A stretch of DNA of 53,326 bases from an uncultured Selenomonadaceae bacterium (GCA_905234505.1 CAJOIA010000005.1:1-53326), one strand, 5' to 3'. Positions 8,881-53,326 are shown, counted from the stretch's first letter. Made by a program: numbers and translations. The notes: a model not told the origin generated them from the sequence alone.

Positions 8881-8882
8881 CA

Positions 8883-12133: not shown

Positions 12134-12583
12134 TTAACGTCCAATTTCCAGAGCTTTTAACGCCATAGTCTTAGCCGCGTTAATTGCCGCTGTATTCGCT
12201 TCATATGCGCGGTGAGCCGTTATCATGTCGACCATTTCAGTGACGATATTAACATTTGGCTTTTCGACGTAACCGTCAGCATTAGCGTCGGGGTGACCAG
12301 GATCGTAAACCATTGGACCTTGTTCGGTATCTTCAACGATTGAAACTGCGCGCACGCCTTCACCGACAGATTTGCCCGCGCCGGTTGCCTTTTGAAGAGC
12401 TGCTTCAAAGCTCATTGGTTGACGTTCACGCGGATTGAAAACAACGTAGCGCCTGTGATAAGCGCCGCCGTCCGCCGTGCGTGTGGTATTTGCATTGGCG
12501 ATATTATTTGAAATTACGTCCATTCTCAAGCGTTCAGCCGTCAAGCCTGACGCGGACGTATCAATTCCTAAAAACATACCCAT
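12134..12583 (-). CDS. flgC: Flagellar basal-body rod protein FlgC
   Basis: Contains SASGLTAERLRMDVISNNIANANTTRT and a rod C-terminal domain. RBS AAAGGAG. Confidence 0.95.
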   Translation of the reverse strand: MGMFLGIDTSASGLTAERLRMDVISNNIANANTTRTADGGAYHRRYVVFNPRERQPMSFEAALQKATGAGKSVGEGVRAVSIVEDTEQGPMVYDPGHPDANADGYVEKPNVNIVTEMVDMITAHRAYEANTAAINAAKTMALKALEIGR

Positions 12584-12607
12584 GAAAAAGCTCCTTTCAG
12601 TCGCTTT

Positions 12608-12683
12608 TTAGGGATTAGTGGAAAGGGTATAGCGAATAGTGATTAAAAACTAGCCCCTTGCCCCTATTCCCTAGCCCCTAATC
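12608..12683. repeat. Heptad-periodic palindromic intercistronic element (G/C-rich variant)
   Basis: Sequence: ttaggga ttagtgg aaagggt atagcga atagtga, loop ttaaaaac, then tagcccc ttgcccc tattccc tagcccc taatc. It fills the flgB-flgC gap, and the flgB stop TAG (12678-12680) lies inside it. Confidence 0.8.
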
Positions 12684-13088
12684 AGCTTTGTCCGCCGCTG
12701 GTAAGCCGCTAAGTTGCGTGGCAAGCGCGTTGTAATAAATCTGATTTTTCGCCAGCGTCGCCATTTCAATATCAATATCAACGTTATTATCGTCTTTGCG
12801 CATCATTGTCGTATTGTCCAAAACAACGCTGGGCTCTGCGCGAGAAATGATAACTTTTGGCGGCAAATGTTTATCGTGAGTACGAAACATCTGCAATTTG
12901 CCTTCCGGCGCTTTTTCGCCATAAAGTTCTTTAGCTAATAACTCTTCAAATTCGACGTTGGATTTGCGGAAATTCGGCGTATTAACATTGGCGATATTAT
13001 TTGAAACAACTTCTTGGCGCATGCTCGCCGCCGTCAAACCGCGTGGCAGATAATTAAAATTCGACGAACTTAAAATCTGTTCCAGCAT
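12678..13088 (-). CDS. flgB: Flagellar basal-body rod protein FlgB
   Basis: Contains LTAASMRQEVVSNNIANVNTPNF. The start is taken at the ATG at 13088, after AGGTGA. Confidence 0.9.
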   Translation of the reverse strand: MLEQILSSSNFNYLPRGLTAASMRQEVVSNNIANVNTPNFRKSNVEFEELLAKELYGEKAPEGKLQMFRTHDKHLPPKVIISRAEPSVVLDNTTMMRKDDNNVDIDIEMATLAKNQIYYNALATQLSGLPAADKAD

Positions 13089-13127
13089 AAACTTCACCTG
13101 CTTTAAAAAACTATTTTTCGCACCAAA

Positions 13128-15879: not shown

Positions 15880-15916
15880 TACCAATGTACTTTTCAGTTT
15901 TGGGAGGGTTAATAAT

Positions 15917-22714: not shown

Positions 22715-22721
22715 CTTTATA

Positions 22722-34310: not shown

Positions 34311-34328
34311 TTTTTAGGATGTGATTAA

Positions 34329-35436: not shown

Positions 35437-35449
35437 AGGAGTTTTATTG

Positions 35450-36166: not shown

Positions 36167-38235
36167 TGAAGAAATTTATCTACAACAGAATATTAATATT
36201 AGCCATTGCCGCCGGATTAATCGCCGCGCTTGTGATAGCCGGTCAGCGTCACGCAGTCGAAATTCACAATTCGCAGGTTGATATGGCAATTGATTATGAA
36301 AGCTTGAAAAATCTTGCCGAGCGTGAAGGGCTTGACTTTGCCGACGTGCTTAAGCAATTCAAAGACGCCGGTATAACTTCACTTGCCATTTACGATACGA
36401 ATTTTGACAAACTTACTCGCGCAGGAAAAGTTATCGCGGTTTACGGGCGCGACATTATCACGAATTACCACAGCGGCGCGCTAAACAGTATTTTTTGGCG
36501 TCAAGCGGTCGACAACGGCTATATCCGCCCAGATTGTGTGTACATTATGAAACGCGACGCGAAAAGTTATAACGAAGTTAAGGCGGAATTGATTCAGCGT
36601 TTCGGCAAAGACAGAATCAGCGCTTTTTCGATTAATGACGAGAATATTTTGGAAGTCAAGGCGCAATTCGGCGCGTTTATGGCTGAACCGATGGGATTTG
36701 ACAGCGACGAACTTGACGCGGCTAAAAATGCGGGCTTTACGATTTTAGCGCGTCCAAAAAATTTTTATCAATGCACAACTGAAAATGTTAAATCTGTTTT
36801 TGAGCGGCTTGATGGCTATCCAATTTCTGAAATTGTTTTTGACGGTCCGGAAATTTTGGGCGCTCCAAGAAGCGAAATTATCAACGTAACGGTTGCCGAA
36901 TTTAATAAACGCGGATATATTTTTGGCGTGATTGAGCATACCAGCCAGTTGCAATTTTATAATCAGCTAGGTATGCCGCAACTTGCCGACGGCGTTGGTT
37001 ATAATAAAATCGCCCGCTTGTACGCTGTGCCGCGCGATGAACAGCCGCGTCTTTCGATTGATATTCTTGTTAATCGCTGGTCGACGACTGACAGGGAGCG
37101 CAATATCAGAATTAATCTGCTCCGCATTTTTGAAAAACCCGACACAGGAAAAACTTTGCTGGAAACAAATTTAGAGTACGTCAAAAAAGTTATCGATAAG
37201 CTCAAAGCGGACGGTTTCACCTTCGGCAAAGCTGGTACTTATGAAAATTATTATCCCAATAAATTTTTGCGCGTGTTGATAATAATTGGCGTGGTTGCCG
37301 CTGGAATTTTATATTTGTCGCTGGTTTCGCACTGGCTCAACGCTAATCAGCGGCTGCAAATAATTTTATTCGTGGCGATTTCAATTTTAGCGGCGATACC
37401 GATTTTTATTGGTAATGACAGCGCGGTTAGAATTTTAGCGGCGTTAATGAGCGCTATTTTATTCCCGACGCTTGCAATTATTTGGCAACTCGACAGATTG
37501 AGATTTATCCGAATGAAAGAAAGCGTCGCGCAGGAAGAATCGGAACTTTCGAACGTGCAAGTAATTTTAGTAGCGGTCGTAACCTTGCTTATAACAAGCG
37601 CAATGTCAATGGTCGGCGCGGCTTATTTGTCGGGCGCGTTATCGGACGTAAAATTTTTCCTGGAGTTTGAGATTTTCAGAGGAATTAAATTAACATTCAT
37701 AATGCCGTTAATCTTGGTGGCGGCGGCGTTTTTGCAAAGATTTAACATTGTCGACGAGGCGCGAAAAAATTTACCGGCGCTAGAACAGCTTAAAGAAATT
37801 TTAAATATGAATGTCACCGTCAAATCATTTTTAATATTTTTAATTGTGGCGGTGGCGTTCGTGATATTAATCGCGCGCAGCGGTCATACGTCAGGAATGC
37901 CGGTATCTGGCGCAGAAATAAAAATTCGCGCAATGTTAGAGCAAATGTTTTACGCTCGCCCGCGCTCGAAAGAAATTTTCATAGGGCATCCGGCGTTCGT
38001 GCTGGCGATAGCGGCGTTTTTGAAACAATTTCCAAAATCAATATATTTCGCGTTAACGCTTGTTGCGACAATCGGGCAAAGTTCAATGGTTGAAACCTTC
38101 GCGCATATGCGCACGCCAATTTTTATGTCATTTATGCGCGGGCTTGACGGCGTATTGCCAGGCGCGCTTATTGGAGCGGTTTTAGTTTTGGCATTAATTT
38201 TCATTAGCAAAGGAGTTTCTTTGAAGTCGCAATGA
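36163..38235 (+). CDS. Large polytopic membrane protein (DUF5693-like) upstream of csaB
   Basis: 690 aa with an N-terminal extracytoplasmic domain and a C-terminal multi-TM domain. Overlaps its neighbours by 4 nt. Confidence 0.55.
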   Translation: MMKKFIYNRILILAIAAGLIAALVIAGQRHAVEIHNSQVDMAIDYESLKNLAEREGLDFADVLKQFKDAGITSLAIYDTNFDKLTRAGKVIAVYGRDIITNYHSGALNSIFWRQAVDNGYIRPDCVYIMKRDAKSYNEVKAELIQRFGKDRISAFSINDENILEVKAQFGAFMAEPMGFDSDELDAAKNAGFTILARPKNFYQCTTENVKSVFERLDGYPISEIVFDGPEILGAPRSEIINVTVAEFNKRGYIFGVIEHTSQLQFYNQLGMPQLADGVGYNKIARLYAVPRDEQPRLSIDILVNRWSTTDRERNIRINLLRIFEKPDTGKTLLETNLEYVKKVIDKLKADGFTFGKAGTYENYYPNKFLRVLIIIGVVAAGILYLSLVSHWLNANQRLQIILFVAISILAAIPIFIGNDSAVRILAALMSAILFPTLAIIWQLDRLRFIRMKESVAQEESELSNVQVILVAVVTLLITSAMSMVGAAYLSGALSDVKFFLEFEIFRGIKLTFIMPLILVAAAFLQRFNIVDEARKNLPALEQLKEILNMNVTVKSFLIFLIVAVAFVILIARSGHTSGMPVSGAEIKIRAMLEQMFYARPRSKEIFIGHPAFVLAIAAFLKQFPKSIYFALTLVATIGQSSMVETFAHMRTPIFMSFMRGLDGVLPGALIGAVLVLALIFISKGVSLKSQ

Positions 38236-39338
38236 ATATTTTAATTTCCGGCTATTACGGCTCAAAAAATGGCGGCGATGAGGCGATGTTGGCAGCTATG
38301 CTTGAAGTTCTGCGCGAAAATTGCAATGATGTTCACGCAACTGTTATCTCGCTGAATCCCGAATACACGAAAAAACGCCATAAGGTTGACGCCGTGAAAT
38401 GGCTGGACGTTTTCGCGATTATAAAAAAAATTCTTGCGGCTGACCTTCTGATTAGCGGCGGCGGTAGTCTTTTGCAAAATGTCACTAGCCGCCGTTCTTT
38501 GTATTATTATCTTGGAATTATTTTTCTGGCGTTGATTTTTCGGCGAAAAGTTATGCTTTACGCTCAAGGTATCGGTCCGATTCGCGGCGCGCTGGCTCAT
38601 TGGCTGATGAATTTTATTGTTAATCGCGTCGATTTAATTACCGTTCGCGACAAAGGTTCGCTTGAAGAATTGTGGCGGCTGAATATCACTAAGCCGAAAA
38701 TTTTTTGTACGGCAGATCCTGTTTTAGCGATTAAACCAGTTGCGTTGGATTTCGGCAAAAAAATTCTGGCGCGTCATTCGGTTAAATCTGGTAAATTAAT
38801 TGGCGTGTCAGTTCGGCGCTGGATTGACTGGGAAAATTGCCAAAATGCACTCGCGCAGGCTTTAGACAAACTTGCAGAGAAACTCAGCGCGCAGATTATT
38901 TTTATTCCGATGCAATTTCCTGAAGATATTAAAGCCGCGAAAAGTACCGCCGCTCTTATGAAAAATTCTTGCGTGGTGCTTGAAGACGAATTTACTACCG
39001 CTGAAATTTTGAGCCTGGTTGGAAATATGGACGTGCTTATAAGTATTCGCTTGCACGCGTTGATATTCGCGGGCGTTATGAGCGTGCCGATGTTGGGCAT
39101 TTCGTACGACCCCAAAATTGATAGATTTTTAGATTCGATTGGTGAAAAACCGATTGGTAATTTGGCGGACGTGACGGCTGATAAAATTTTCGACGCAACG
39201 CTGAAAAAACTTGACGCCAAAAATTTTCATAATGATTCGCTGTTAAAAAATCTGCGCGAATTGGCAATAAAAAATGCTCGGCTGGCTATGGAATTAATGA
39301 AAGGCGGCGATTATCAAATTGACGACGAAAAAAATTGA
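38232..39338 (+). CDS. csaB: Polysaccharide pyruvyl transferase CsaB
   Basis: Contains ILISGYYGSKNGGDEAMLAAML and a pyruvyl-transferase core. Confidence 0.8.
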   Translation: MNILISGYYGSKNGGDEAMLAAMLEVLRENCNDVHATVISLNPEYTKKRHKVDAVKWLDVFAIIKKILAADLLISGGGSLLQNVTSRRSLYYYLGIIFLALIFRRKVMLYAQGIGPIRGALAHWLMNFIVNRVDLITVRDKGSLEELWRLNITKPKIFCTADPVLAIKPVALDFGKKILARHSVKSGKLIGVSVRRWIDWENCQNALAQALDKLAEKLSAQIIFIPMQFPEDIKAAKSTAALMKNSCVVLEDEFTTAEILSLVGNMDVLISIRLHALIFAGVMSVPMLGISYDPKIDRFLDSIGEKPIGNLADVTADKIFDATLKKLDAKNFHNDSLLKNLRELAIKNARLAMELMKGGDYQIDDEKN

Positions 39339-40275
39339 ACTGCGGGACTTTGAGGAAACGCGCTCGATATTAGGAGAACGCGACGAATTTTTACAGGTGC
39401 TTGATGAAAAATTTAATTGCAAGATTGTCAGTCGTGGCAATGCGATTGAACTTTATGGCGATGAATCAGAAGTTGAACGCGTCGCGCAGGTGATTGACGA
39501 AATTAAAATTCTGCACCGCAACGGAAGCATTATCACGATGAATGATTTGACGGCAGCGATTAAAATTATCAAATCTAATCGCGCAGGAGATTTGCACAAG
39601 ATTTTTGGCGAAACTGTGATTGTGACGGCGAATGGCAAACACATTCACGCAAAGAGCGTCGGACAACAAAATTATCTTGACACGCTGAAAAGCCACGTGA
39701 TAACTTTTGGAATTGGACCGGCGGGCACAGGTAAAACTTTTCTGGCTGTGGCGATGGCGGCGTATTATCTGCGACTGCGCGAGGTTAAGAAAATTATTTT
39801 GACGCGACCGGCGGTAGAGGCAGGCGAGCGGCTCGGATTTTTGCCTGGCGATATGCAAGAGAAAGTCGACCCATATTTGCGCCCATTGTATGACGCTCTG
39901 CAGGATATTTGGGGCTATGATATGTACCAGAAATTTTTTTCGCGCGGGATAATTGAAATTGCGCCGCTTGCCTATATGCGCGGGCGAACTTTGAGCGACG
40001 CTTTTATAATTTTGGACGAAGCGCAAAATACAACTAGCCGCCAAATGAAAATGTTTTTGACGCGGCTTGGTTTTGGTTCGCGAATGGCAGTTACCGGCGA
40101 TTTGAGCCAAATTGATTTACCGCGCGGCGTTAATTCTGGTTTGGCGGAGGCGGTGAAAATTCTCGCGCCGATTAATGGAATTGGTATTTGCGAATTGACT
40201 TCCACTGATGTTGTGCGTCACGATGTTGTTTCAAAAATTGTTGAGGCTTGGGAAAAATATGAACACGATAATTAA
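39319..40275 (+). CDS. phoH: PhoH-family ATPase
   Basis: Walker A motif GPAGTGKTFLAVAMA and a PhoH core. The start (TTG at 39319) is uncertain. Confidence 0.9.
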   Translation: MTTKKIELRDFEETRSILGERDEFLQVLDEKFNCKIVSRGNAIELYGDESEVERVAQVIDEIKILHRNGSIITMNDLTAAIKIIKSNRAGDLHKIFGETVIVTANGKHIHAKSVGQQNYLDTLKSHVITFGIGPAGTGKTFLAVAMAAYYLRLREVKKIILTRPAVEAGERLGFLPGDMQEKVDPYLRPLYDALQDIWGYDMYQKFFSRGIIEIAPLAYMRGRTLSDAFIILDEAQNTTSRQMKMFLTRLGFGSRMAVTGDLSQIDLPRGVNSGLAEAVKILAPINGIGICELTSTDVVRHDVVSKIVEAWEKYEHDN

Positions 40276-40711
40276 TTCTGAAGTTGCAGTTGACGAAAAA
40301 ATCACGGCTGAAATTCTGCGCGCGGCTGAAGTTATCGGTAAAATTTATGGCGTAGAAAATGCGGAACTCAGCATAACTTTGACTGATGATAAAAATATTC
40401 ACGCGCTGAATAAAAAATATCGAGGCATTGACCGCCCAACTGATGTTTTGTCGTTTGCATTTCGAGAAAGTGACGAGCCGGAAATTATCGGCGGCGAAAC
40501 TGAAATGCTTGGAGATATTATTATTTCGATTGAGCGGGCTAAAATTCAAGCGGCGGATTTTGGGCATAGTTTCCTGCGCGAAATTATTTTTTTGGAAGTG
40601 CACGGGCTATTGCATTTACTTGGTTACGATCACATTGAAGAGGCTGACCGGCTCGAAATGGAAGCTGAGCAAGATTTTATTATGGCTGAATTGAAAATTG
40701 GGAGGGACTGA
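40259..40711 (+). CDS. ybeY: rRNA maturation endoribonuclease YbeY
   Basis: Contains the HGLLHLLGYDH zinc motif. The start is taken at the ATG at 40259. Confidence 0.9.
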   Translation: MNTIINSEVAVDEKITAEILRAAEVIGKIYGVENAELSITLTDDKNIHALNKKYRGIDRPTDVLSFAFRESDEPEIIGGETEMLGDIIISIERAKIQAADFGHSFLREIIFLEVHGLLHLLGYDHIEEADRLEMEAEQDFIMAELKIGRD

Positions 40712-40714
40712 ACT

Positions 40715-41671
40715 TTGAAATCTGGATTTATCGCGGTTATCGGGCGTCCGAACGTGGGAAAGTCGACGTTGATTAATAAGATCATTGGGCAGAAAATAGC
40801 GATTATGTCAGACAAGCCGCAAACTACGCGCAGTCGCATTCAATGCATTTTGACTCAGGACGACGCGCAATTTATTTTTTTAGATACGCCTGGCATTCAC
40901 AAGCCGAAATTCAAACTAGGCGAATATATGTTGAAGGCGGCGGAAAGCACATTGCAGGAAGTTGACGTTATTTTTTTCGTTATCGATGCGACTGCCAGCT
41001 TAGGGAATAGTGGCAAGGGTATAGGGAATAGTAAAACCACTAATCCCTCTTCACTAGTCCCTAACCCCTTAATAGGCGGAGGCGAAAAATATATTCTTGA
41101 GCGGCTAAATTCTACTACGCAACCGGTTATTTTGGTTATTAATAAAATTGATTTACTGAATCGCGCAGAACTTTTACCGATAATTGCGGCTTATTCGGAG
41201 CGTTACAATTTCGCGGCGACTGTTCCAATTAGCGCGATTGAAGGCAGTAATGTTGACGAACTTTTGATTGAGGCTAAAAAATTTTTGCCCGAAGGTCCGA
41301 AATATTATCCAGCCGATATGGTCACCGACCAGCCCGAGCGTTTGATTATCTCTGAAATTATTCGCGAGAAAATTTTGCACGTGACCGAAGATGAGGTGCC
41401 TCATTCGGTGGCGGTTGATATTGAAGAAATTACTTCGCGCAGAAAAGATTTGACGTACATTCGCGCGACAATTTATGTTGAGCGAGATTCTCAAAAAGGT
41501 ATTCTAATTGGCAAAAATGGCGGACTTTTGAAAGGCGTTGGTCAAAATGCGCGTCCAGAAATTGAAATGCTTTTAGGCACAAAAGTTTTTCTGGATTTAT
41601 GGATTAAAGTCAAACGCGATTGGCGAAATTCTGTCGGCGCGCTTCAAAGTTTTGGGCTAGGCGAAAATTAG
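40715..41671 (+). CDS. era: GTPase Era (carries a 26-residue repeat-encoded insertion)
   Basis: G1 motif GRPNVGKST, G3 DTPG, G4 NKID and a KH domain are all present. TTG start follows GGGAGGGA. Confidence 0.95.
   Translation: MKSGFIAVIGRPNVGKSTLINKIIGQKIAIMSDKPQTTRSRIQCILTQDDAQFIFLDTPGIHKPKFKLGEYMLKAAESTLQEVDVIFFVIDATASLGNSGKGIGNSKTTNPSSLVPNPLIGGGEKYILERLNSTTQPVILVINKIDLLNRAELLPIIAAYSERYNFAATVPISAIEGSNVDELLIEAKKFLPEGPKYYPADMVTDQPERLIISEIIREKILHVTEDEVPHSVAVDIEEITSRRKDLTYIRATIYVERDSQKGILIGKNGGLLKGVGQNARPEIEMLLGTKVFLDLWIKVKRDWRNSVGALQSFGLGEN
41000..41076 (+). repeat. Heptad-periodic palindromic element inserted in frame in era
   Basis: Sequence: ttaggga atagtgg caagggt ataggga atagt, loop aaaac, then cactaat ccctctt cactagt ccctaac cccttaatagg. 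The first 33 nt differ at only 3 positions from the intergenic copy at 12608. Confidence 0.8.
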
Positions 41672-41684
41672 GTCGTGATTTATC

Positions 41685-42278
41685 TTGAATAAAAATGAAA
41701 CTTTTGCCAGTCGCATCTCCAAACAATTTTTGAATGGGCTGATTGTCGTTGTGCCGCCCGTCATTACCGCGTTTATTGTAATGTGGATTTTGAGCATAAC
41801 CGAAGGCAAGCTTGGGAAGTTTATTGAACAGTATCTGCAAATTAAATTTCCTGGCGTCGGACTTATCACGATTATAATTTTTATTTGGCTGGTCGGACTT
41901 GTCACCGGCAACATTTTCGCGAAAAAAATTATTCGTTTCCTTGAGTGGCTGCTTGAACAAATTCCGGTCGTCAAATTTATCTATGGCTCAGTCAAGCAAT
42001 TTTCTCGGGCGGTTCTGGATTATAAATCGTCTTTCAAGCACGTGGTACTTGTTCCCTATCACCAAGATTGGACAATTGGCTTTCTTATGAATAATATTCC
42101 TTCGGCGGTGCGTGAAAAAATCGGCGTAGATTATGTTTGCGTATTCATTCCGTGGAGCTTGAATATGACAAGCGGCACAAATCTTTTCGTTAAGCGCCAG
42201 GATATTATTTTTGTGAATATGACGCCGGAAGATGCTTTGCAATTTATATTAACCGCCGGCACTGTTGCTAAAAAATGA
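41685..42278 (+). CDS. DUF502-family membrane protein
   Basis: 197 aa with two TM segments and the IPVVKFIYGSVKQF motif. The TTG start is uncertain. Confidence 0.65.
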   Translation: MNKNETFASRISKQFLNGLIVVVPPVITAFIVMWILSITEGKLGKFIEQYLQIKFPGVGLITIIIFIWLVGLVTGNIFAKKIIRFLEWLLEQIPVVKFIYGSVKQFSRAVLDYKSSFKHVVLVPYHQDWTIGFLMNNIPSAVREKIGVDYVCVFIPWSLNMTSGTNLFVKRQDIIFVNMTPEDALQFILTAGTVAKK

Positions 42279-43039
42279 GCGAAAAATTTATTTTGCAGAA
42301 AACAATTGATGCGTCGCTTTTAAATCGCGGCTTAAATATTCCTGCGGCGGCTAAAATTTTTCTGGCTGAAAATCTTAGCGGCGGTGCGTTGATCCACGGC
42401 GAAAAGCGCGCTATAAAAATTATTTTTGAAGGCGAAACTCACGAGGCAATTTTGATTAGCATAAATTTCAATCGTCAAAAATACCCCAATCATCAAGATA
42501 TTTGGCAGATTGTTTACGGGAAAAATTCTCCGCTCGCCGCGAATATCCGAAAAATTTTTTTGTTGCCGAATGAGCAAAATTATCTCATCCTGTATTCGAC
42601 GGGCATTAAAGACATTTTTTATTTTGAGCCGATTTTTACAGGCGAAATCCCAAATCTCGCTGCTGAACAGACTGTAGAGAATCTTTTAGACGTGCAAAGT
42701 TTGACTGACCCTGAAGCTGCGCTTATTGAAAAATATCATTTGACGAAAATTCGTAAGCTCAATCGGAGTATCGGCGATTACTTAAAAAATTTGTATCAAT
42801 TTCGATGTCAAATCTGCGGGCAAAATTTTGGAGAAAGTTACGGACTGAAAATTGCCGAGTGCCATCACATAAATTATTTTGTTCAAAGTTTGAATAACGA
42901 CGCCGCAAATTTGCTGATTGTTTGCCCGAATCATCACAGAATTATTCACGCCGCCAATCCGATTTTCGACGCGGAGAAAAAAATTTATCGATATTCCAAT
43001 GGCTATGAAGAAAAATTAAAGCTGAATTTGCATTTATAG
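42275..43039 (+). CDS. HNH endonuclease (McrA/COG3183-like) with an unassigned N-terminal domain
   Basis: Contains CQICG...ECHHINYF...NLLIVCPNHHRIIH. The start overlaps the DUF502 stop (ATGA). Confidence 0.8.
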   Translation: MSEKFILQKTIDASLLNRGLNIPAAAKIFLAENLSGGALIHGEKRAIKIIFEGETHEAILISINFNRQKYPNHQDIWQIVYGKNSPLAANIRKIFLLPNEQNYLILYSTGIKDIFYFEPIFTGEIPNLAAEQTVENLLDVQSLTDPEAALIEKYHLTKIRKLNRSIGDYLKNLYQFRCQICGQNFGESYGLKIAECHHINYFVQSLNNDAANLLIVCPNHHRIIHAANPIFDAEKKIYRYSNGYEEKLKLNLHL

Positions 43040-43049
43040 AGGTAGACTA

Positions 43050-43781
43050 ATGGAAACTTTTAAAATTGAGGGCGTGATATTGCGCACGACAGATTTTGGT
43101 GATGCTAATCGCGTGGTTACAATTTACGCAAAAGATTTTGGCAAGCTTGAACTGAATGCTTATGGCTGCCGACGCGCGAAAAGTTCAATGTCCGGCGCGT
43201 TGCAGATTTTTAATCGCATTACCGCCGAGGTTAGTCACGGAGCGAAAGTTTCGACGATACGCGAGGCGGATGTTGTAAATTTTTACAGTAACTTAACAGC
43301 TGACATTGAGCGGCTAAGTTATGCGGCAATTTTTTTTGAGATTGTTAATCGAATGACTTTGCCAAAATTTCCTGAGCCTGAACTTTACAATTTGCTGATA
43401 AAATCTTTGCCCGCGCTGAATAATCTTGACGCGAGAATTGCGGCGCTGATTGGCGTTTGTCAATTTATGGAAATGACCGGATTTCAACTGAATTATTTTG
43501 AATGCGTTCACTGCGGCGCGAAAATTACTGGTGACGCAAAAATAAATTTGAAGACCGGCGGCGCAATGTGTATGAATTGTTTTGTTGACGAAAGTTTAAA
43601 TTATCCTAAAAATGTGCGATTGGCATTTGCTGAAATGTTAAAGCATGATTGGCGCGGCGAATTGAAATTAAATCAGCAACAAATAAATTCGGCGGAAGAA
43701 ATTTTGTGGCGGCAAGTGCGCGGAATTCTCGGCAAAGAATTAAATTCGATAAAATTTATAAAACAAATGCAAAAAAATTAG
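43050..43781 (+). CDS. recO: DNA repair protein RecO
   Basis: 243 aa with an OB-fold N-terminus and a CxxC...CxxC zinc motif (CVHCGAK...CMNC). Confidence 0.9.
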   Translation: METFKIEGVILRTTDFGDANRVVTIYAKDFGKLELNAYGCRRAKSSMSGALQIFNRITAEVSHGAKVSTIREADVVNFYSNLTADIERLSYAAIFFEIVNRMTLPKFPEPELYNLLIKSLPALNNLDARIAALIGVCQFMEMTGFQLNYFECVHCGAKITGDAKINLKTGGAMCMNCFVDESLNYPKNVRLAFAEMLKHDWRGELKLNQQQINSAEEILWRQVRGILGKELNSIKFIKQMQKN

Positions 43782-43813
43782 GGAAGCGGCGAATCACCTC
43801 TTCCCATTTTTTA
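43781..43813. terminator. Bidirectional intrinsic terminator between recO and ftsZ
   Basis: gggaag-N13-cttccc, with T-runs on both strands. Confidence 0.7.
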
Positions 43814-43827
43814 TTGACTGTATTAAA

Positions 43828-45087
43828 TTATCTGCGGTTCATCCACTCGGGTATATCGATTGAGCCGTCCTTGCCTTTTTTTAAATTAGTAGGCTCGGAA
43901 ACCGGCGGCGTGACCGTTTGCGGAGGAGGCGGTGGCGGTGGCGTTTGAGTTTTGCTTCTGGTGAAATCAAAAACCGGAAATGAAGTATTTCTTGTATGTT
44001 GAGTTACTTGCGGCGGCGAAAATGACGATTGAAAAGTTTGATGCTGATTTGACAGGAAAGACGCCGGTCTTACAATTTCCGATTCGCCTTGAAAACGCGT
44101 GGCAATAATCGTTACTCGCACGGTATCGCCCAAAGTTTCATCAATGGACATTCCCCACATAATTTCTGCTTCAGAATCAGCCGCCTCTTGAATTGTAGTA
44201 GACGCTTCGTTAACTTCCAGCATTGTCAGCATATCATTTGCGCCCATAATATTCATTAAAACGCTGTGAGCGCCTTGAATACTTGTCTCAAGGAGTGGCG
44301 ACTCAATAGCTAATCTAGCCGCGTTAATAGGTGCTTTATCGCCGGTAGCTTCGCCAATTCCAATAAGAGCCGCGCCGGAATTGCTCATAATTGTGTTAAT
44401 ATCGGCGAAATCCAAATTAACTAAGCCTGGCATTGTGATTAAGTAAGAAATACCTTGCACACTCTGCCGCAAAATATCATCAGCAATACTAAACGCCTTC
44501 ATAACTGGCGTTTTTTTATCAACGACGGTAAGCAGTCTGTCATTTGGAATAGTGATAATTGTATCAACATTGCGCTTAAGGTTTTCAATTCCAATATCGG
44601 CATTTTTCTTACGTCGCGGACCTTCAAAATTAAATGGGCGAGTGACAACTCCGACAGTCAAGGCGCCAATTTCGCGAGCAATGGACGCTATAACCGGCGC
44701 CGCGCCAGTACCTGTACCGCCGCCCATCCCTGCCGTTATGAAGACCATGTCCGCGCCATCCAATGCTTTTTGAATGTCATCGCGGCTTTCTTGCGCGGCT
44801 TTTTCGCCAACTTCGGGACGCGCGCCCGCTCCAAGTCCCTTAGTCAATTTCTCGCCAATTCTCATACGTTTGGGCGCTATTGAATTTAGCAAAGCTTGAG
44901 CATCGGTATTAATAGCGATAAATTCCACTCCCTCAAGCCCGAGTGAAATCATTCTATTGACAGCATTTGAGCCGCCGCCGCCTACCCCAATTACTTTGAT
45001 TTTTGCCAGCTGATCTAAACTGGTCTCTTCTGGTTCCCACACATGCATTTCCCCCACATCATTATTTATTTTCGAGATTTTTAACAA
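43828..45087 (-). CDS. ftsZ: Cell division GTPase FtsZ
   Basis: Contains [13 protein letters not shown] and [10 protein letters not shown], a proline-rich linker and a conserved C-terminal peptide. Confidence 0.95.
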
Positions 45088-45158
45088 ATTTAAAGTAAGT
45101 ATACTCGTAACATTTTACTATAAAAAAATAATTTTTGCTATAGCAACTAAAAAAAGTT

Positions 45159-45485
45159 TCAACCACAGTAATTTTTCAGTAAACGTTCTTTCAGTGCTGA
45201 GAGATTTTTAAAAATGCGCAGCCCCAAAACCAGTAGCGTTATGTAATACAGTTCGATTTCAAAAATATTTCCGATAAAAATTAATATCAATCCGAACACG
45301 CTATTTATTAAAAAGCCAGTGATTAATACCGCGTCACTGAATCTTGATTCAAATTTCGCGCAGAAACCGCCCAATATGGAATCAAGCGCCGCCATTAATA
45401 TTACTGCGAAAATTTTTGTATCAGCTGAAATATTCGACGGGTAGCCAAAAATTATTCCGACCACTAAACCGATTAACGCTTTCAT
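45159..45485 (-). CDS. Small basic membrane protein (DUF1290/Sbp-like)
   Basis: 108 aa with 3-4 TM segments. Sits between the DUF881 gene and ftsZ, as in Firmicute dcw clusters. Confidence 0.65.
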   Translation of the reverse strand: MKALIGLVVGIIFGYPSNISADTKIFAVILMAALDSILGGFCAKFESRFSDAVLITGFLINSVFGLILIFIGNIFEIELYYITLLVLGLRIFKNLSALKERLLKNYCG

Positions 45486-46075
45486 TTTTTAATAACAACC
45501 TTTGCAAAGACGTGGTGAAATGAGCCATCATAAGGTGGAATATAAATTTCGTCTGAAGTTGCAATTTCAAGCTGAATGCCCCAAACGCTTAGCGTATCTT
45601 TGACGCCGCCGCGCATTTTCAAGGAATTTTCCAGCGTCTTTTTGTCGCCAATTGCGCTAATTTCATATGGCGGAGCAGAGCGAACATTATTAACAGACAA
45701 AGTCGGACCGGCGCAGCGAATTTCACTGGTGGCGGTTAATCTTTGACCGTTGATTGAAATAGCTTCCGCACCCGCCGCTTTAAGCTCATTTATCACGCGC
45801 AAAATATCTTCGTCGTGGATCACATACAAATTTGGATTTTCGCCAATACTGACTGCGCGAGTGCTATCGTCCATTTTAACAATTACGCCTTGACCTTCGA
45901 GCGGCAACAGGCACGCTTTCAATTTCAAATCGGTTATAATTTTTTTCGTCGCGGCGTAGTCATTTTCTTCATTTGTATCTTTCTGCCGAAATTCTATTGA
46001 CAAAATAAAACCGACAATTACGCACACGAAAGTTATTGACCAACCTTCGCCGAAAATTCGCCGGAGTTTTTCCAT
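45482..46075 (-). CDS. DUF881-family division-associated protein
   Basis: N-terminal TM segment plus a DUF881-like domain. ATG at 46075 follows GAGGT. Confidence 0.7.
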   Translation of the reverse strand: MEKLRRIFGEGWSITFVCVIVGFILSIEFRQKDTNEENDYAATKKIITDLKLKACLLPLEGQGVIVKMDDSTRAVSIGENPNLYVIHDEDILRVINELKAAGAEAISINGQRLTATSEIRCAGPTLSVNNVRSAPPYEISAIGDKKTLENSLKMRGGVKDTLSVWGIQLEIATSDEIYIPPYDGSFHHVFAKVVIKK

Positions 46076-46079
46076 AAGT

Positions 46080-46817: not shown

Positions 46818-46836
46818 TAAAAAACCTCCGGTTTTT

Positions 46837-46910
46837 TTAGTGATTAGTGATTAGGGGTTAGTGGCTAGTGATTTTTTTCTAGTCACTATTCACTATTCAC
46901 TATTCACTAA
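46837..46910. repeat. Heptad-periodic palindromic intercistronic element (archetype)
   Basis: Sequence: ttagtga ttagtga ttagggg ttagtgg ctagtga, loop tttttttc, then tagtcac tattcac tattcac tattcac taa. It lies between the murC-ddl stop (46913) and the ftsQ RBS. Confidence 0.85.
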
Positions 46911-46912
46911 AA

Positions 46913-49216
46913 TCAAAAGCCCGCCAGCGTCAAAATCTTTTCGCAAAGCTCCGGAAATTCAATGCCCGCCGCCCGCGCTGCATCTGGTACAAGAGAGGTT
47001 TCTGTCATTCCTGGCACTGAATTTATTTCAATAACGTAAGGAATATTTTCCGCCGACAACATCATATCCACACGAGCCACGCCTGCGCATTTGCAAATTT
47101 TAAACGCACTAATCGCCAATGCTTGAACTTTTTCGGTCAATTCATCGGAAATTTCAGCGGGACAAATATGAGTTGACGCGCCTTTTTTATACTTAGTTTC
47201 GTAATCGTAGCGTCCGGTCGTCGTGGTAATTTCAATAATCGGCAACGCCTTAGCTTTGTCTTCATTGCCGAAAACCGCTACCGTCAATTCTCGCCCGCTG
47301 ATAAATTCTTCAACTAAAATTTCGTCGCCGTACTTAAAACTATTTTCAATCGCCGCCTGAATATCCTCAGCATTTTCAACAATTTCAACGCCTATGCTCG
47401 AGCCCTGCGAAGGCGCTTTGATAACCACCGGCAAACCAAATTTTTCTTCAATAGTTTTAGCCAAATTTTTATCTTTGTCAACTGCGCGAAAAACTGCAAA
47501 TTTCGGCGTAGCAATTCCGGCAGAAGTTAAAACGCGCTTTGTCATAGTTTTATCCATAGTCAAAGCGGCGGCAAGCACATTTGAGCCGGTATAGGGAATT
47601 TTCAACATATCAAGCGTTCCTTGAAGTTGCCCATCTTCGCCGTAGAAACCATGAACTGCATTGAAAACGATACCGCAATTTGAAAGTTTAATGTCAGCCG
47701 CGAAAGTTTGAGGCTTCAATTCAAGCGGCTCGGCGTTATAATTTTTTGAAAGGAGCGCGTCCAAAATCGCCTTGCCAGTTCTGCGCGAAACTTCAGCTTC
47801 AGTGGAAGAGCCGCCCATTACCACGACAATTTTACAATTCTGCCGCTGCTTTTTCAAAAGTTCAATGAGTTCATCGGCAGTTTTATAAATATCGCCCGCA
47901 CCCATTGTTATAACTAAATCGCCAGGCGTCACATTGTCAAGCAGATACTCAGCAATTTTTTCGCGGTCGGGAATGTACGAAACCGCTTGATTAGTTGTCG
48001 CTAAAACTTGCTCTAAAATAGATTCGCCGCTAATTCCAGCAATTTTATCTTCACCAGCAGAATAAATATCAGTAAGCACAAGTAAATCAGCACCGGCAAA
48101 CGCTCCGCCAAATTCATTGAGCAAAAGTTGCGTGCGAGTGTACCTGTGCGGCTGAAATACGCAAATAATTCTTCGCGGATTAGTTTCACGCGCCGCCTTC
48201 AATGTTGCCGCAATTTCAGTCGGGTGATGTCCATAATCATCAACAATCCAAATATTTCTGACGTTGCCCTTAGTTTGAAAACGCCGCTTGGCTCCGTGAA
48301 ATTTGCTCAAACCATCGGCAATCTTCGCAAAATCAACGCCAATATTCATAGCCGTTGCAATAGTCGCCAGTGCGTTTAAAACGTTGTGCCGCCCGTGTAT
48401 TGCCAGTTGAACCCTGCCCAAAATCTTATCGCCGTGAATAACGTCAAAGCTAACGCCTTCAATGCTCGCCTGAATGTTTTTAGCAGTAAAATCGGCGTCA
48501 TTGTCAATCGCGTAGGAAATTATTTTTCGGTCAATTGTCGCAGCCATTTCGCGCAGATTTTCATTGTCAAAACAAAGCACAGCAACGCCGCTTTCAGGAT
48601 TAATATTCTCAATGAAAATTTTAAAAGCCTCGCGGATTCGCTGAACCGTGCCGTAATAATCCAGGTGATCGTCTTCAACATTCGTGACAACTGCAATAGA
48701 AGGCTTGAGCTTTATAAATGAGCCGTCGCTTTCGTCAGCTTCAGAAACAAGATAATCGCCTTTGCCCAAAATCGCACCTGTGCCTAAATCAACCGATTCG
48801 CCGCCAATTATAATTGTGGGGTCAACGCCCGCATTAAAAAGCACAAAGCCAATCATTGAGGTGGTTGTAGTTTTGCCATGCGCGCCAGCAACCGCGATAC
48901 CTTTTTTGGAATTCAAAAGCATAGCGTTAATATCGGAGCGGTGCAGTCTTGGAATTTTTAATTCAGCCGCTCTTAAAATTTCCGGATTATCATTATGAAT
49001 TGCTGAAGAACAAACAATCGCTTCAACGTCACCAATATTCGCGCAGTCGTGACCAATAAAAATTTTCGCGCCAAGATTTTTCAGCATTTGCACAGTTGCA
49101 GAATCAGCGCAGTCAGAGCCGGTAACTTCATAGCCGGATTCAATTAAAATTTTCGCAAGCGCACTCATACCCGCGCCGCCAATACCAACAAAGTGAAATT
49201 TTTTCAAATTCATCAT
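46913..49216 (-). CDS. murC-ddl: Fused UDP-N-acetylmuramate--L-alanine ligase / D-alanine--D-alanine ligase
   Basis: The N-terminal half is MurC (FHFVGIGGAGMSALA, GAHGKTTT). The C-terminal half is Ddl (KIVVVMGGSSTEAEVS...EINSVPGMTETSL). It is a single uninterrupted ORF. The start is taken at the ATG at 49216. Confidence 0.9.
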   Translation of the reverse strand: MMNLKKFHFVGIGGAGMSALAKILIESGYEVTGSDCADSATVQMLKNLGAKIFIGHDCANIGDVEAIVCSSAIHNDNPEILRAAELKIPRLHRSDINAMLLNSKKGIAVAGAHGKTTTTSMIGFVLFNAGVDPTIIIGGESVDLGTGAILGKGDYLVSEADESDGSFIKLKPSIAVVTNVEDDHLDYYGTVQRIREAFKIFIENINPESGVAVLCFDNENLREMAATIDRKIISYAIDNDADFTAKNIQASIEGVSFDVIHGDKILGRVQLAIHGRHNVLNALATIATAMNIGVDFAKIADGLSKFHGAKRRFQTKGNVRNIWIVDDYGHHPTEIAATLKAARETNPRRIICVFQPHRYTRTQLLLNEFGGAFAGADLLVLTDIYSAGEDKIAGISGESILEQVLATTNQAVSYIPDREKIAEYLLDNVTPGDLVITMGAGDIYKTADELIELLKKQRQNCKIVVVMGGSSTEAEVSRRTGKAILDALLSKNYNAEPLELKPQTFAADIKLSNCGIVFNAVHGFYGEDGQLQGTLDMLKIPYTGSNVLAAALTMDKTMTKRVLTSAGIATPKFAVFRAVDKDKNLAKTIEEKFGLPVVIKAPSQGSSIGVEIVENAEDIQAAIENSFKYGDEILVEEFISGRELTVAVFGNEDKAKALPIIEITTTTGRYDYETKYKKGASTHICPAEISDELTEKVQALAISAFKICKCAGVARVDMMLSAENIPYVIEINSVPGMTETSLVPDAARAAGIEFPELCEKILTLAGF

Positions 49217-49246
49217 ATCGCTAAACCTCAAAATATTTTCCTCCTT

Positions 49247-49296
49247 GTTATGTGATAATTGATATGTGCTTTTCACATATCACATTTCACTTTCAC
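49247..49296. repeat. Heptad hairpin element, GTGA/TCAC subfamily
   Basis: Sequence: gttatgtgataattgatatgtg, loop ctttt, then cacatatcacatttcactttcac. The lptF/G stop TGA (49293-49295) lies in the first unit on the transcribed strand. Confidence 0.7.
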
Positions 49297-50387: not shown

Positions 50388-50418
50388 TAAAAGCCGCTCC
50401 CTATCAGAAAATTATTTT

Positions 50419-50628: not shown

Positions 50629-50640
50629 AAAATTTCCCCC

Positions 50641-51360: not shown

Positions 51361-51361
51361 A

Positions 51362-52820: not shown

Positions 52821-52832
52821 CCTATCTCCTTG

Positions 52833-52898
52833 TTTAGTGGTTAGTGATTGGTGGTTAGTGGTTGGTGTAAAAATCACTACCCACTATTCACTATTCAC
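52833..52898. repeat. Heptad-periodic palindromic intercistronic element
   Basis: Sequence: tttagtgg ttagtga ttggtgg ttagtgg ttggtg, loop taaaaa, then tcactac ccactat tcactat tcac. It contains the TAG stop (52891-52893) of the upstream acyltransferase gene. Confidence 0.8.
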
Positions 52899-53326
52899 TT
52901 TTCCCTCTCTTGACTTTGCGCATTTCGGGCGGCGTATTCCAGCGCTTTTGAAACCACAGCCACTGAGTAGGATTTTCGCGAATAACCTGCTCCAAAATCC
53001 GCGTCATTTTTTCGGTAAATCTGAACAAATCGCCGTCCGCGTCGCCGGTATCTTCAAAGTGCATAACTTCAAAAATTTTAACCAAGTGCCGCCCGTTCGG
53101 CTGACGAATTATAAACGCGGGCAAAACCGGCGAATTGAATTTTTTGGAAAAGACAGCCGGTCCCATTGGTGTTGACGCAATTTTACCAAGAAAATTTATA
53201 AATGCGCCGCCTGGTCCGCCATCTTGATCTGCAAGGAAACCTAAAATTTTGCCCTTCTTCAAAGCCCGTCCTGCTGATAATAATTCGCTCGTGCCGCGAT
53301 TGAATATTTCTACGTGAATTGTCGCC
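52891..53326 (-). CDS. Lipid A biosynthesis (LpxL/HtrB-like) acyltransferase, C-terminal part; 5' end lies beyond the window
   Basis: The ORF is open to the window edge. It contains FLADQDGGPGGAFINFLGKIASTPMGPAVFSKKF...NPTQWLWFQKRW, typical of the lauroyl/myristoyl acyltransferase family. Confidence 0.7.
   Translation of the reverse strand, partial: ATIHVEIFNRGTSELLSAGRALKKGKILGFLADQDGGPGGAFINFLGKIASTPMGPAVFSKKFNSPVLPAFIIRQPNGRHLVKIFEVMHFEDTGDADGDLFRFTEKMTRILEQVIRENPTQWLWFQKRWNTPPEMRKVKRGKSE

What the first reader, a model, noticed from the sequence alone, without database searches (positions are those of the whole stretch)
41000..41076. Palindromic repeat element inserted in frame inside the essential GTPase gene era
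Era residues 96-121 (LGNSGKGIGNSKTTNPSSLVPNPLIG) are encoded by a 77-nt heptad-periodic palindrome. The first 33 nt of that palindrome differ at only 3 positions from the intergenic element between flgB and flgC (12608). The insert sits between the VIFFVIDAT strand and the NKID (G4) motif, where Era proteins normally have a short surface loop. The rest of Era is intact. The only frame of this element without a TAG is the one era uses. The known precedent for in-frame colonisation of coding genes by a palindromic element is the Rickettsia palindromic element family; I do not know of one in Firmicutes.
Basis: partly seen in the sequence, partly recalled or inferred. Interest (0 to 1): 0.75.

Follow-up and report, generated by a model that had tools for sequence, protein, structure and literature searches.

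The report
Hairpin repeat translated inside Era GTPase
A 73-base hairpin repeat that normally sits in the short gaps between genes of this rumen bacterium (Selenomonadaceae) has landed in frame inside the conserved GTPase gene era and is read through as an extra 24-residue floppy loop, a rare kind of event best known from Rickettsia.

Summary
Nine bases (Glu-Lys-Phe) are replaced by 81 bases (40994-41074). The core of these, 41000-41072, is a hairpin built from 7-nt units.

A profile built only from seven intergenic copies in other Selenomonadaceae genomes finds the era segment full length (E 1.6e-17). It is therefore a true member of a dispersed repeat family. The window holds three more copies and a short related one, all in stop-codon-to-ribosome-binding-site spacers.

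Independent assemblies of two further lineages carry the insert, so it is not an assembly artefact. era stays under strong purifying selection (dN/dS about 0.03). The insert itself changes at the protein level, yet it is about 12 times more conserved at synonymous sites than the rest of the gene. AlphaFold places it as a low-confidence loop between strand 4 and helix 3 of the GTPase domain.

It is not an RPE family member. It belongs to the known class of G-rich heptamer inverted repeats.

Side lead: genes for the 23S-rRNA intervening-sequence protein (PF05635) are very often bracketed by inverted heptad arrays. This suggests the hairpins may be cargo-less relatives of such cassettes.

The parts
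40715..41671 (+). era (GTPase Era) coding sequence, 318 aa, TTG start; intact on both sides of the insert
   Evidence: ORF list. Homologues are named GTPase Era and carry MMR_HSR1 + KH_2. PDB Era 9jkp_B matches at E 3e-108, in two blocks that skip query residues 98-116.
40994..41074 (+). Replacement segment: 81 nt (ASLGNSGKGIGNSKTTNPSSLVPNPLI) where empty-site orthologues have 9 nt GAAAAATTC (EKF). Net gain is 72 nt = 24 codons.
   Evidence: DNA alignment of the filled (window, L001) and empty (L002, L003, L004) sites; protein alignment.
41000..41072 (.). Core of the heptad-periodic hairpin repeat (TTAGGG...CCCCTTAA), a full-length family member
   Evidence: nhmmer with a profile that excludes era and window copies: 40998-41073, E 1.6e-17. 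CM R1: 87.6 bits. Family alignment A6.
41000..41031 (+). 5' G-rich arm, heptads TAGGGAA TAGTGGC AAGGGTA TAGGGAA TAG
   Evidence: Sequence; fold.
41015..41017 (+). AAG (Lys101) at the one heptad head that falls in the era frame. The other heads are TAG but out of frame. AAG is shared with the flgB/flgC copy, so it predates the insertion.
   Evidence: Sequence read in frame.
41032..41039 (+). Loop of the hairpin (approximate limits)
   Evidence: Minimum-free-energy structures.
41040..41072 (+). 3' C-rich arm (CTAATCCCTCTTCACTAGTCCCTAACCCCTTAA)
   Evidence: Fold. It aligns with the right arms of intergenic copies L091, L054 and L007.
12603..12686 (.). Intergenic family copy between the stop of the upstream rod-protein gene (flgB-like, 12678..13097 -) and the RBS of the flgC-like gene (12134..12583 -). 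It is the closest relative of the era copy in the window.
   Evidence: (83.7 bits); Pfam Flg_bb_rod.
46832..46915 (.). Intergenic family copy (TAGTGAT-type heptads) between the murC-ddl fusion stop and the ftsQ RBS
   Evidence: (68.6 bits). The same site holds a different heptad hairpin in L002 and is empty in L005.
52829..52913 (.). Intergenic family copy between the end of a lipid A acyltransferase gene and the lptC RBS. It overlaps the last codons of the upstream gene.
   Evidence: (49 bits). The site is empty in L002 and L005.
49249..49296 (.). Short ATGTGAT-type heptad hairpin upstream of the murC-ddl RBS. It is a related class but was not detected by the family model.
   Evidence: L005 has a longer TAGTGGT-type array at the same site and L002 has none.

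Best explanation
A copy of a dispersed hairpin repeat of about 73 nt has replaced three codons of era and is translated as part of the protein.

The repeat has a 5' arm of G-rich heptads, (T/A)AG(G/T)G(G/A)N, a short loop, and a complementary C-rich 3' arm. In this Selenomonadaceae lineage it occurs roughly every 10-13 kb. It almost always fills the spacer between the stop codon of one gene and the ribosome-binding site of the next gene in the same operon. Because TAG recurs every 7 nt, a typical copy has stops in all frames. The subfamily copied into era has AAG at the one heptad head that falls in frame, and its loop has no stop, so the reading frame stays open.

The result is a 27-residue Gly/Asn/Ser/Pro-rich loop (net +24 residues) between strand 4 and helix 3 of the GTPase domain. 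This is a region where Era homologues align poorly. Era with the loop is functional.

What is shown: family membership, the empty site in relatives, presence in three lineages, purifying selection on the rest of era, and conservation of the insert at the nucleotide level rather than the codon level.

What is inferred:
- The element was copied in by the same unknown process that seeds intergenic copies.
- Once inside an essential gene it became frozen, because slippage by 7 nt would shift the frame.
- The hairpin (RNA or DNA) is either still under selection or is kept like the family by gene conversion.
For: Family membership:
- A profile built without any era or window copy hits 40998-41073 full length at E 1.6e-17.
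- The era copy aligns over both arms with intergenic copies.
- The CM finds exactly four copies in the window plus copies in related loci, about 20 distinct copies in 197 kb, and only the era copy lies in a long ORF.

Empty site: L002, L003 and L004 have GAAAAATTC (EKF), as do the more distant homologues.

Not an artefact: the insert is present in L005 (ERZ27234816), L006 (Logan ERR3525316), L034 (MAG Reindeer_2_mag_171) and L118 (ERZ27234820).

Functional gene: between window and L005, outside the insert, dN = 0.017 and dS = 0.65.

Pattern of change in the insert:
- Inside the insert dN = 0.087 and dS = 0.051. There are 6 differences in 81 nt, four of them at second codon positions.
- Against L118 there are 0 differences in 81 nt, while the flanks differ by about 7%.
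- The hairpin is kept in both lineages (-34 kcal/mol, z = -3.4; and -42.8 kcal/mol, z = -5.0).

Stop content: only 6 of 114 frames of the intergenic copies are open.

Structure: residues 97-117 have pLDDT below 50 and are coil, between strand 85-91 and helix 122-131. PDB Era aligns in two blocks around the insert.

Turnover: every intergenic site examined differs in presence or type among the three lineages.
Against: - There is no target-site duplication and no clean boundaries. Nine bases were lost, so the insertion mechanism is unknown.
- The empty-site lineage (L002) is not a clear outgroup. Distances in and around era are star-like or mosaic, so a single ancestral insertion cannot be told apart from spread of the filled allele by recombination.
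- The family shows no compensatory base-pair changes, because the core pairs are invariant. Selection for the structure itself is therefore unproven.
- Only part of the genome was seen, so the ratio of 1 coding copy in about 20 is rough.
- No transcript or peptide data exist.
- The AlphaFold model is only moderate overall (mean pLDDT 66).
Confidence: 0.85

Rival explanations
1. The insert is kept because the hairpin has taken on a cis-acting role inside the era mRNA or DNA. Possible roles are an RNase III or other processing site, or a translation-slowing structure, that tunes Era levels. On this view it is an exapted regulatory structure and not a passive passenger.
For: - Synonymous sites in the insert are about 12 times less diverged than in the rest of era, while amino acids change freely.
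- There are 0 differences in 81 nt against a lineage whose flanks differ by 7%.
- A strong hairpin is retained in both diverged versions.
- Related heptad stems around S23p genes in 23S rRNA intervening sequences are RNase III substrates (PMC4990558).
Against: - No covariation was seen.
- The two versions use partly different pairing registers, and the window version is the weaker one.
- Gene conversion from other copies, or short-patch recombination between lineages, would give the same low divergence.
- Cleavage within an essential mRNA would be costly.
Confidence: 0.25
2. The low divergence of the insert reflects recent spread and not constraint. The filled allele, or only the element, moved between lineages by homologous recombination, or it is repeatedly homogenised by gene conversion with the many intergenic copies.
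For: - The locus is visibly mosaic among co-occurring strains.
- The empty-allele lineage is nested by distance.
- All four arm differences between window and L005 switch between heptad variants that are common in the family (TAGTGG/TAGGGG, TAGTCCC/TAGCCCC, CTAACCC/CTAGCCC).
Against: - Divergence resumes within 4-10 nt of both ends of the element. There are five differences in the 17 nt just upstream. A transferred tract would therefore have to be about 85-110 nt with both ends at the element borders, and this would have to hold in two separate comparisons.
Confidence: 0.3
3. The segment is an assembly artefact: a chimeric join or a repeat collapse placed inside era.
For: - L001, from the same sample as L002, is a mosaic that switches between the L002 genotype and the window genotype four times within era.
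- The window's divergence from relatives changes level near era.
Against: - Four other assemblies from different samples and assemblers carry the insert inside an intact era. These include a 93-kb contig and a version with six substitutions.
- The frame is exactly preserved.
- Selection on the flanking codons is strong.
Confidence: 0.02
4. The loop arose locally within era, by slippage or duplication, or is an old lineage-specific protein feature. Its likeness to the intergenic hairpins would then be convergence on heptad composition.
For: Heptamer arrays can arise by slippage and are common in many phyla (PMC4692102).
Against: - The era copy shares the specific order of irregular heptads, the loop position and the right-arm sequence with intergenic copies of other genomes.
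- All other homologues lack the segment.
- The amino-acid sequence is not conserved, whereas the nucleotides are.
Confidence: 0.03

Closest known systems
Rickettsia palindromic elements (RPE; Ogata et al. 2000, as summarised in PMC10969869)
   Same: A small palindromic repeat copied in frame into a conserved housekeeping gene. It is translated as an extra surface peptide and tolerated by the protein.
   Different: - RPEs are about 100-150 bp, are confined to Rickettsia, are not heptad-periodic, carry a conserved peptide, and sit in ORFs in nearly half of cases.
- This element is 73 nt and heptad-built. Its peptide is not conserved.
- Only about 1 of 20 copies seen is coding.
- No sequence comparison with RPEs was run.
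G-rich heptameric repeats of Xanthomonas (GGGAATC) and Nostoc (GGGGAYT), and cyanobacterial STRR (PMC4692102)
   Same: - 7-nt units with a G tract.
- Usually about four or more units.
- Placed between co-oriented ORFs within 50 bp of a stop or start codon.
- Often occur as convergent pairs able to form stem-loops.
- Length and sequence vary between close relatives.
- A minority of copies are intragenic.
   Different: - Here the two arms form one compact unit with a conserved heptad order (a recognisable family consensus), in a Negativicute.
- A whole unit is read through in frame in an essential gene.
- G-quadruplex potential is not conserved: the motif is intact in L005 and broken in the window.
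REP/BIME and REPIN elements with RAYT transposases (PMC3116915, PMC2817692, PMC3733652; listed, not read)
   Same: Short, abundant extragenic palindromes within operons, transcribed as part of mRNAs, with presence or absence varying between strains.
   Different: - REPs are 20-40 bp, are not heptad-periodic, and are defined together with a RAYT gene flanked by REPs.
- No RAYT was looked for, and a search is not possible without the whole genome.
- In-frame coding copies are not typical of REPs.
MITEs that make in-frame fusions (ERIC, Coxiella QMITE1, Anabaena MITEs; PMC10969869, PMC5896051)
   Same: A small non-autonomous repeat inside an ORF that adds a peptide.
   Different: MITEs have terminal inverted repeats, target-site duplications and a parent IS. 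Here no duplication is seen at any filled or empty pair and no parent IS is known.
23S rRNA intervening sequences carrying an S23p (PF05635) gene (PMC4990558)
   Same: - A stem made of inverted termini. In Coxiella the stem has tandem heptamers just upstream of the S23p start.
- Copies of the era-type family bracket an S23p gene in two Selenomonadaceae genomes.
   Different: The era copy has no cargo gene and is not in rRNA. RNase III cutting is untested.

Membership tests
GTPase Era (host gene) | Ras-like GTPase domain with G1-G5 motifs followed by a C-terminal KH domain | tested here: met
   GRPNVGKST, DTPG and NKID are present. Homologues carry PF01926 + PF07650. PDB Era chains match at E 3e-108 to 4e-60.
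Selenomonadaceae heptad-hairpin repeat family (defined here) | Full-length match to a profile built from intergenic copies only | tested here: met
   nhmmer E 1.6e-17, model positions 4-82 of about 84, at 40998-41073.
G-rich heptameric inverted repeats (Xanthomonas/Nostoc type) | Tandem 7-nt units with a G tract, four or more units per array | tested here: met
   Each arm has 4-5 heptads, TAGGGAA/TAGTGGC/AAGGGTA....
G-rich heptameric inverted repeats (Xanthomonas/Nostoc type) | Convergent arrays on opposite strands able to form a stem-loop | tested here: met
   Folds of all copies give -25 to -37 kcal/mol, with 6-bp blocks separated by single mismatches.
G-rich heptameric inverted repeats (Xanthomonas/Nostoc type) | Mostly between co-oriented ORFs, within 50 bp of a stop or start codon; variable between close relatives | tested here: met
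   The four intergenic copies in the window meet this. Site-by-site differences among window, L002 and L005 are shown. The era copy is the exception.
Rickettsia palindromic elements | Sequence similarity to one of the RPE families | not tested
Host, length (73 vs about 100-150 nt) and heptad build all differ.
Rickettsia palindromic elements | A high fraction of copies inserted in frame in ORFs, encoding a conserved peptide | tested here: not met
   Only the era copy among about 20 distinct copies lies in a long ORF. The peptide differs at 5 of 26 positions between lineages, whereas the rest of Era has dN = 0.017.
MITE | Target-site duplication flanking the element | tested here: not met
   Filled versus empty comparisons at era and at the ftsQ spacer show no direct repeat. 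At era, 9 nt were lost.
MITE | Terminal inverted repeats shared with a parent insertion sequence | not testable with these tools
   The whole genome was not available, and no transposase was seen next to copies in the loci read.
REP/REPIN | 20-40 bp palindrome associated with a RAYT (IS200/IS605-like) gene flanked by REPs | not tested
   The length and heptad build differ, and RAYT genes were not searched for.
IVS-like heptad cassette with S23p (PF05635) | S23p ORF enclosed by inverted arrays | tested here: not met
   The era copy has a loop of about 6 nt and no ORF. Family copies in L046 and L089 do enclose a PF05635 gene (E 4.9e-39).
IVS-like heptad cassette with S23p (PF05635) | Stem cut by RNase III | not testable with these tools
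   This needs an enzyme assay or RNA end mapping.

The most novel reading that the evidence does not exclude
The era insert, and heptad hairpins in general, may be cargo-less derivatives of a widespread cassette that seems to be undescribed. The cassette is a gene for the four-helix-bundle 23S rRNA intervening-sequence protein (S23p, PF05635) enclosed by inverted arrays of 7-nt repeats. On this reading the classical 23S rRNA intervening sequences are the copies that landed in rRNA, and the era loop is a copy that landed in a protein gene. S23p would then be a candidate factor for their spread or upkeep.

The support is an association. Of 80 S23p genes picked from metagenomes by protein similarity alone, 47 of 77 have a heptad array within 160 nt upstream and 47 of 71 have one within 260 nt downstream. 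38 of 68 have both, against a background of 0.04-0.06 per window. The two arrays are reverse complements in 31 of 40 loci with arrays on both sides. Truncated S23p remnants sit inside such hairpins in L037 and L064. The derivation itself, and any role for S23p, are not shown.
Probability: 0.35. Interest if true: 0.8.

Novelty: new variant of a known kind. Interest (0 to 1): 0.6.

Why it matters
This is a clean natural experiment. An essential, slowly evolving GTPase has carried a translated hairpin repeat across lineages that differ by dS of about 0.65, and closely related empty alleles are available for comparison.

It extends the Rickettsia-type 'selfish DNA in protein genes' phenomenon to a Negativicute and to the heptamer-repeat class.

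The contrast between free amino-acid change and frozen nucleotides gives a testable case of constraint at the nucleic-acid level inside a coding region.

The side lead that ties heptamer arrays to S23p genes could explain two old puzzles: why heptamer repeats are over-represented in bacteria, and where rRNA intervening sequences come from.

Tried and rejected
- **Exact look-up of the window's own Era** found nothing, so the source record could not be fetched.
- **L001 as independent confirmation.** It looked independent at first but is a mosaic of the L002 and window genotypes from one sample. I dropped it as evidence.
- **Protein-database search with the insert peptides** (two versions plus the open antisense frame). 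It returned nothing, and it did not even return the Era proteins that contain them. The negative result is therefore uninformative about other coding copies (searches failed on parameter limits).
- **Rfam.** No family matched in the window at gathering score.
- **Target-site duplications.** None were found at era or at the ftsQ spacer.
- **Covariation in the family alignment.** There was none, because all core pairs are invariant.
- **Intrinsic terminator reading of the intergenic copies.** Rejected by eye, with no terminator scan run. The T run precedes the hairpin on the + strand, so on the transcribed (-) strand of the flanking genes the hairpin is followed by an A run, and the copies lie inside operons just upstream of ribosome-binding sites.

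Full report
**1. What is in the sequence**

The ORF at 40715..41671 (+) encodes a 318-aa GTPase Era, preceded by phoH and ybeY and followed by a DUF502 gene, an HNH-like ORF and recO. Residues 96-121 (LGNSGKGIGNSKTTNPSSLVPNPLIG) are encoded by 41000-41077.

This stretch reads as five G-rich heptads (TAGGGAA TAGTGGC AAGGGTA TAGGGAA TAG), a short A-rich loop, and a C-rich arm that pairs back with them. As RNA, a 101-nt stretch around it folds at -34.1 kcal/mol, compared with -24.1 +/- 2.9 for shuffles (z = -3.4). Bases 41000-41032 match 12608-12640 at 30 of 33 positions. A 34-mer from the element has a chance expectation of zero in shuffles of the window.

Only the era frame is open among the sense frames. 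One antisense frame is open as well.

**2. Relatives with and without the segment**

Among the 120 best of 8000 homologues, only the one cluster that includes the window protein has 318-319 aa. Nearly all the rest have 294-297 aa, and several are named GTPase Era of Selenomonadaceae.

In the protein alignment the others read ...DA(T/N)EKFGGGEKY..., where the window reads ...DATASLGNSG...PNPLIGGGEKY....

Syntenic contigs were fetched for the nearest short protein (L002, L003, L004). Their gene order is the same over 20 kb. At the DNA level GAAAAATTC is replaced by 81 nt, a net gain of 72 nt, with no direct repeat at the borders. So this is a replacement of three codons by 27, and not a clean cut-and-paste with a target duplication.

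**3. Is it an assembly artefact?**

L001 also carries the insert. However, it is 100% identical to L002 upstream of era and 100% identical to the window downstream, and it switches between the two genotypes four times within era. Both L001 and L002 come from sample ERZ28573574. I therefore treat L001 as a mosaic, probably an assembly chimera, and not as independent support.

Independent support comes from four other assemblies:
- L005, a 93-kb contig from ERZ27234816.
- L006, a Logan assembly of ERR3525316.
- L034, from the MAG Reindeer_2_mag_171.
- L118, from ERZ27234820.

All four have the insert inside an intact era. The L005/L006/L034 version differs from the window by six substitutions in the 81 nt. 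The insert is real.

**4. What the segment is**

The window holds three more hairpins of the same build:
- 12603-12686, between a flgB-like and a flgC-like gene.
- 46832-46915, between a murC-ddl fusion and ftsQ.
- 52829-52913, between a lipid A acyltransferase gene and lptC.

Each fills the spacer from the stop codon of one gene to the ribosome-binding site of the next gene on the same strand.

A scan of one genome per species with a heptad pattern brought in 15 loci from three Selenomonadaceae MAGs. Ten full-length copies align over both arms, with a shared order of irregular heptads, a shared loop position and a shared right arm.

A covariance model built from them finds exactly the four window copies plus others. 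That is about 20 distinct copies in 197 kb of Selenomonadaceae DNA, or one per 10-13 kb in the loci not selected for having a copy.

The decisive control is a profile built only from seven intergenic copies of other genomes. It finds the era segment as the best hit in the window, full length, at E 1.6e-17. The era segment is a member of this family.

Apart from era, no copy lies within a long ORF. A fifth, short hairpin with ATGTGAT-type heptads lies at 49249-49296.

**5. Why it can be read through**

With a period of 7, the TAG at the head of each heptad rotates through all three frames. On average the intergenic copies have 2-3 stops per frame, and only 6 of 114 frames are open.

In era the heptad head that falls in frame is AAG (41015-41017, Lys101). 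This variant is shared with the flgB/flgC copy, so it was present before the insertion. The loop also lacks the TAA that the flgB/flgC copy has in the same frame. Most insertions of this family into a gene would truncate the protein. That fits the rarity of coding copies.

**6. State of the host gene and of the insert**

Between window and L005, era outside the insert has dN = 0.017 and dS = 0.65. Both alleles carrying the insert have therefore been under strong purifying selection for a long time.

Inside the insert the pattern is reversed. There dN = 0.087 and dS = 0.051, and four of the differences are at second codon positions. Divergence resumes within a few bases on both sides of the element.

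A third lineage, L118, differs from the window at 19 of 279 and 13 of 180 positions in the flanking parts of era, but at 0 of 81 positions in the insert.

So the nucleotides of the element are kept and the peptide is not. The hairpin is strong in both versions (L005: -42.8 kcal/mol, z = -5.0), although it partly uses a shifted register.

Three readings remain open:
- selection on the hairpin itself;
- gene conversion from the many other copies;
- short-patch transfer between lineages.

The family alignment gives no covariation, because the paired core columns never vary.

**7. Place in the protein**

The best PDB match, Era 9jkp_B, aligns as two blocks that skip query residues 98-116. More distant Era structures lose alignment over the whole region 95-132.

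An AlphaFold model (32-sequence alignment, mean pLDDT 66) gives strand 85-91, then coil with pLDDT below 50 for residues 97-117, then helix 122-131. The insert is thus predicted to be a disordered loop between strand 4 and helix 3 of the GTPase domain. The model is moderate, so this is an indication only.

**8. Turnover of the family**

Every site examined differs among the three lineages, which are 86-92% identical in DNA over the compared region:

| Site | Window | L002 | L005 |
|---|---|---|---|
| ftsQ spacer | TAGTGAT-type hairpin | ATGTGAT-type hairpin | empty |
| murC spacer | short hairpin | empty | long array |
| lptC spacer | filled | empty | empty |
| era | filled | empty | filled |

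L002 is not a clear outgroup in era (window-L002 dS = 0.40, L005-L002 dS = 0.35, window-L005 dS = 0.65), and the locus is mosaic. The history of the insert, whether one gain or allelic spread, cannot be settled here.

**9. Comparison with what is known**

- **RPEs.** In-frame colonisation of protein genes is best known for Rickettsia palindromic elements. It also occurs with ERIC, Coxiella QMITE1 and Anabaena MITEs (PMC10969869). This element is not an RPE by host, length or build. Its peptide is not conserved, and coding copies are rare.
- **G-rich heptameric repeats.** The build matches the repeats described in Xanthomonas and Nostoc. Those lie between co-oriented ORFs, sit close to stops and starts, often form convergent pairs able to make stem-loops, vary between close species, and include a minority of intragenic copies (PMC4692102).
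- **Heptamer repeats with stops in all frames** placed just upstream of start codons are also described in Beggiatoaceae (PMC4679880).
- **Spread across phyla.** My pattern scan shows TAGGG-type heptad hairpins in Acidobacteriota, Cyanobacteria, Bacteroidota, Patescibacteria and others.

I file the finding as a new variant of a known kind: a compact heptad-hairpin family in a Negativicute, with one copy translated inside an essential GTPase.

**10. A lead found on the way**

In two Selenomonadaceae MAGs (L046, L089), copies of the same family bracket a 119-121-aa ORF that is a PF05635 23S rRNA intervening-sequence protein, S23p (E 4.9e-39).

Every S23p gene in the loci pulled in by the heptad pattern is bracketed in the same way. 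Two loci, L037 and L064, hold truncated S23p remnants inside such hairpins.

As an unbiased test I fetched 80 S23p loci from metagenomes by protein similarity alone and applied a specific period-7 criterion:
- 47 of 77 have an array within 160 nt upstream.
- 47 of 71 have an array within 260 nt downstream.
- 38 of 68 have both.
- The background is 0.04-0.06 per window of the same size.
- In 31 of 40 loci with arrays on both sides, the two arrays are reverse complements.

The heptad sequence differs from lineage to lineage. The Coxiella 23S rRNA intervening sequence likewise has tandem heptamers just upstream of its S23p gene, inside a stem cut by RNase III (PMC4990558). Searches of the paper library found no description of this general association.

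This suggests that the short hairpins may be cargo-less relatives of such cassettes. So far it is an association and not a demonstrated derivation.

**11. Verdict**

- Shown: what the insert is.
- Inferred: that it is translated, from the frame and the selection on the gene.
- Unknown: how it got there.
- Open: why its nucleotides are conserved.

Noticed in passing
L046 6329-6804 (-), L089 7385-7861 (+); also L028, L075, L023, L064, L037 and L119-L198: Genes for the 23S rRNA intervening-sequence protein (PF05635, four-helix bundle) are bracketed by inverted arrays of 7-nt repeats. In 80 metagenome loci chosen by protein similarity, 61% have an array upstream, 66% downstream and 56% both, against a background of about 4-6%. 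The heptad sequence differs between lineages. Truncated gene remnants occur inside some of the hairpins.
   Followed up: partly
window 8715-8885 (+), 22715-22895 (-), 15725-15885 (-): A second repeat family of about 170 nt has three copies, about 73% mean column identity in their alignment (shared blocks 78-100% identical), each downstream of an unrelated gene (peptidase U32, GNAT acetyltransferase, DUF4931). The consensus fold has three hairpins. The first shows three compensatory pair changes and the last looks like a terminator. No Rfam family matches. It may be an unknown small RNA or mobile repeat.
   Followed up: partly
L001 1-18916 compared with L002 and window 34300-51500: Contig scaffold_3664 of ERZ28573574 is identical to the L002 genotype upstream of era and identical to the window genotype downstream. 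It switches four times within era. This is either a metagenome assembly chimera or a recombinant, and it warns against using it as independent evidence.
   Followed up: yes
window 34300-51500 compared with L002 and L005: The window is about 90% identical to both relatives upstream of era but only about 82-88% identical downstream, where L002 and L005 are closer to each other (about 92%). The change of relationship falls near era. It may be recombination in nature or a join in the MAG contig.
   Followed up: partly
window 33585-34310: A Methyltransf_21 gene lies between secA and prfB in the window, L001 and L003, but is absent from L002 and L005. L002 has a heptad hairpin at that spot instead (L002 3519-3601).
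   Followed up: no
window 42275-43039 (+): A 254-aa ORF between the DUF502 gene and recO has only a weak HNH endonuclease match (E 1e-4) and no other Pfam hit. It is conserved in all the related loci.
   Followed up: no
window 46913-49231 (-): MurC and D-Ala-D-Ala ligase are fused in one 772-aa ORF. The mechanically listed ORF is 15 codons longer than the gene called in relatives.
   Followed up: no
L005 10290-10313 compared with window 41003-41026: In the L005 version, the sense strand of the insert carries a complete G-quadruplex motif (GGGAATAGGGGCAAGGGTATAGGG). In the window the second G tract is broken (GTGG).
   Followed up: no
L008-L117 (genome-contig scan): TAGGG-type heptad arrays, many of them forming hairpins with a CCCTA-type partner arm, occur in Acidobacteriota, Cyanobacteria, Bacteroidota, Chloroflexota, Planctomycetota, Patescibacteria and others.
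   Followed up: partly
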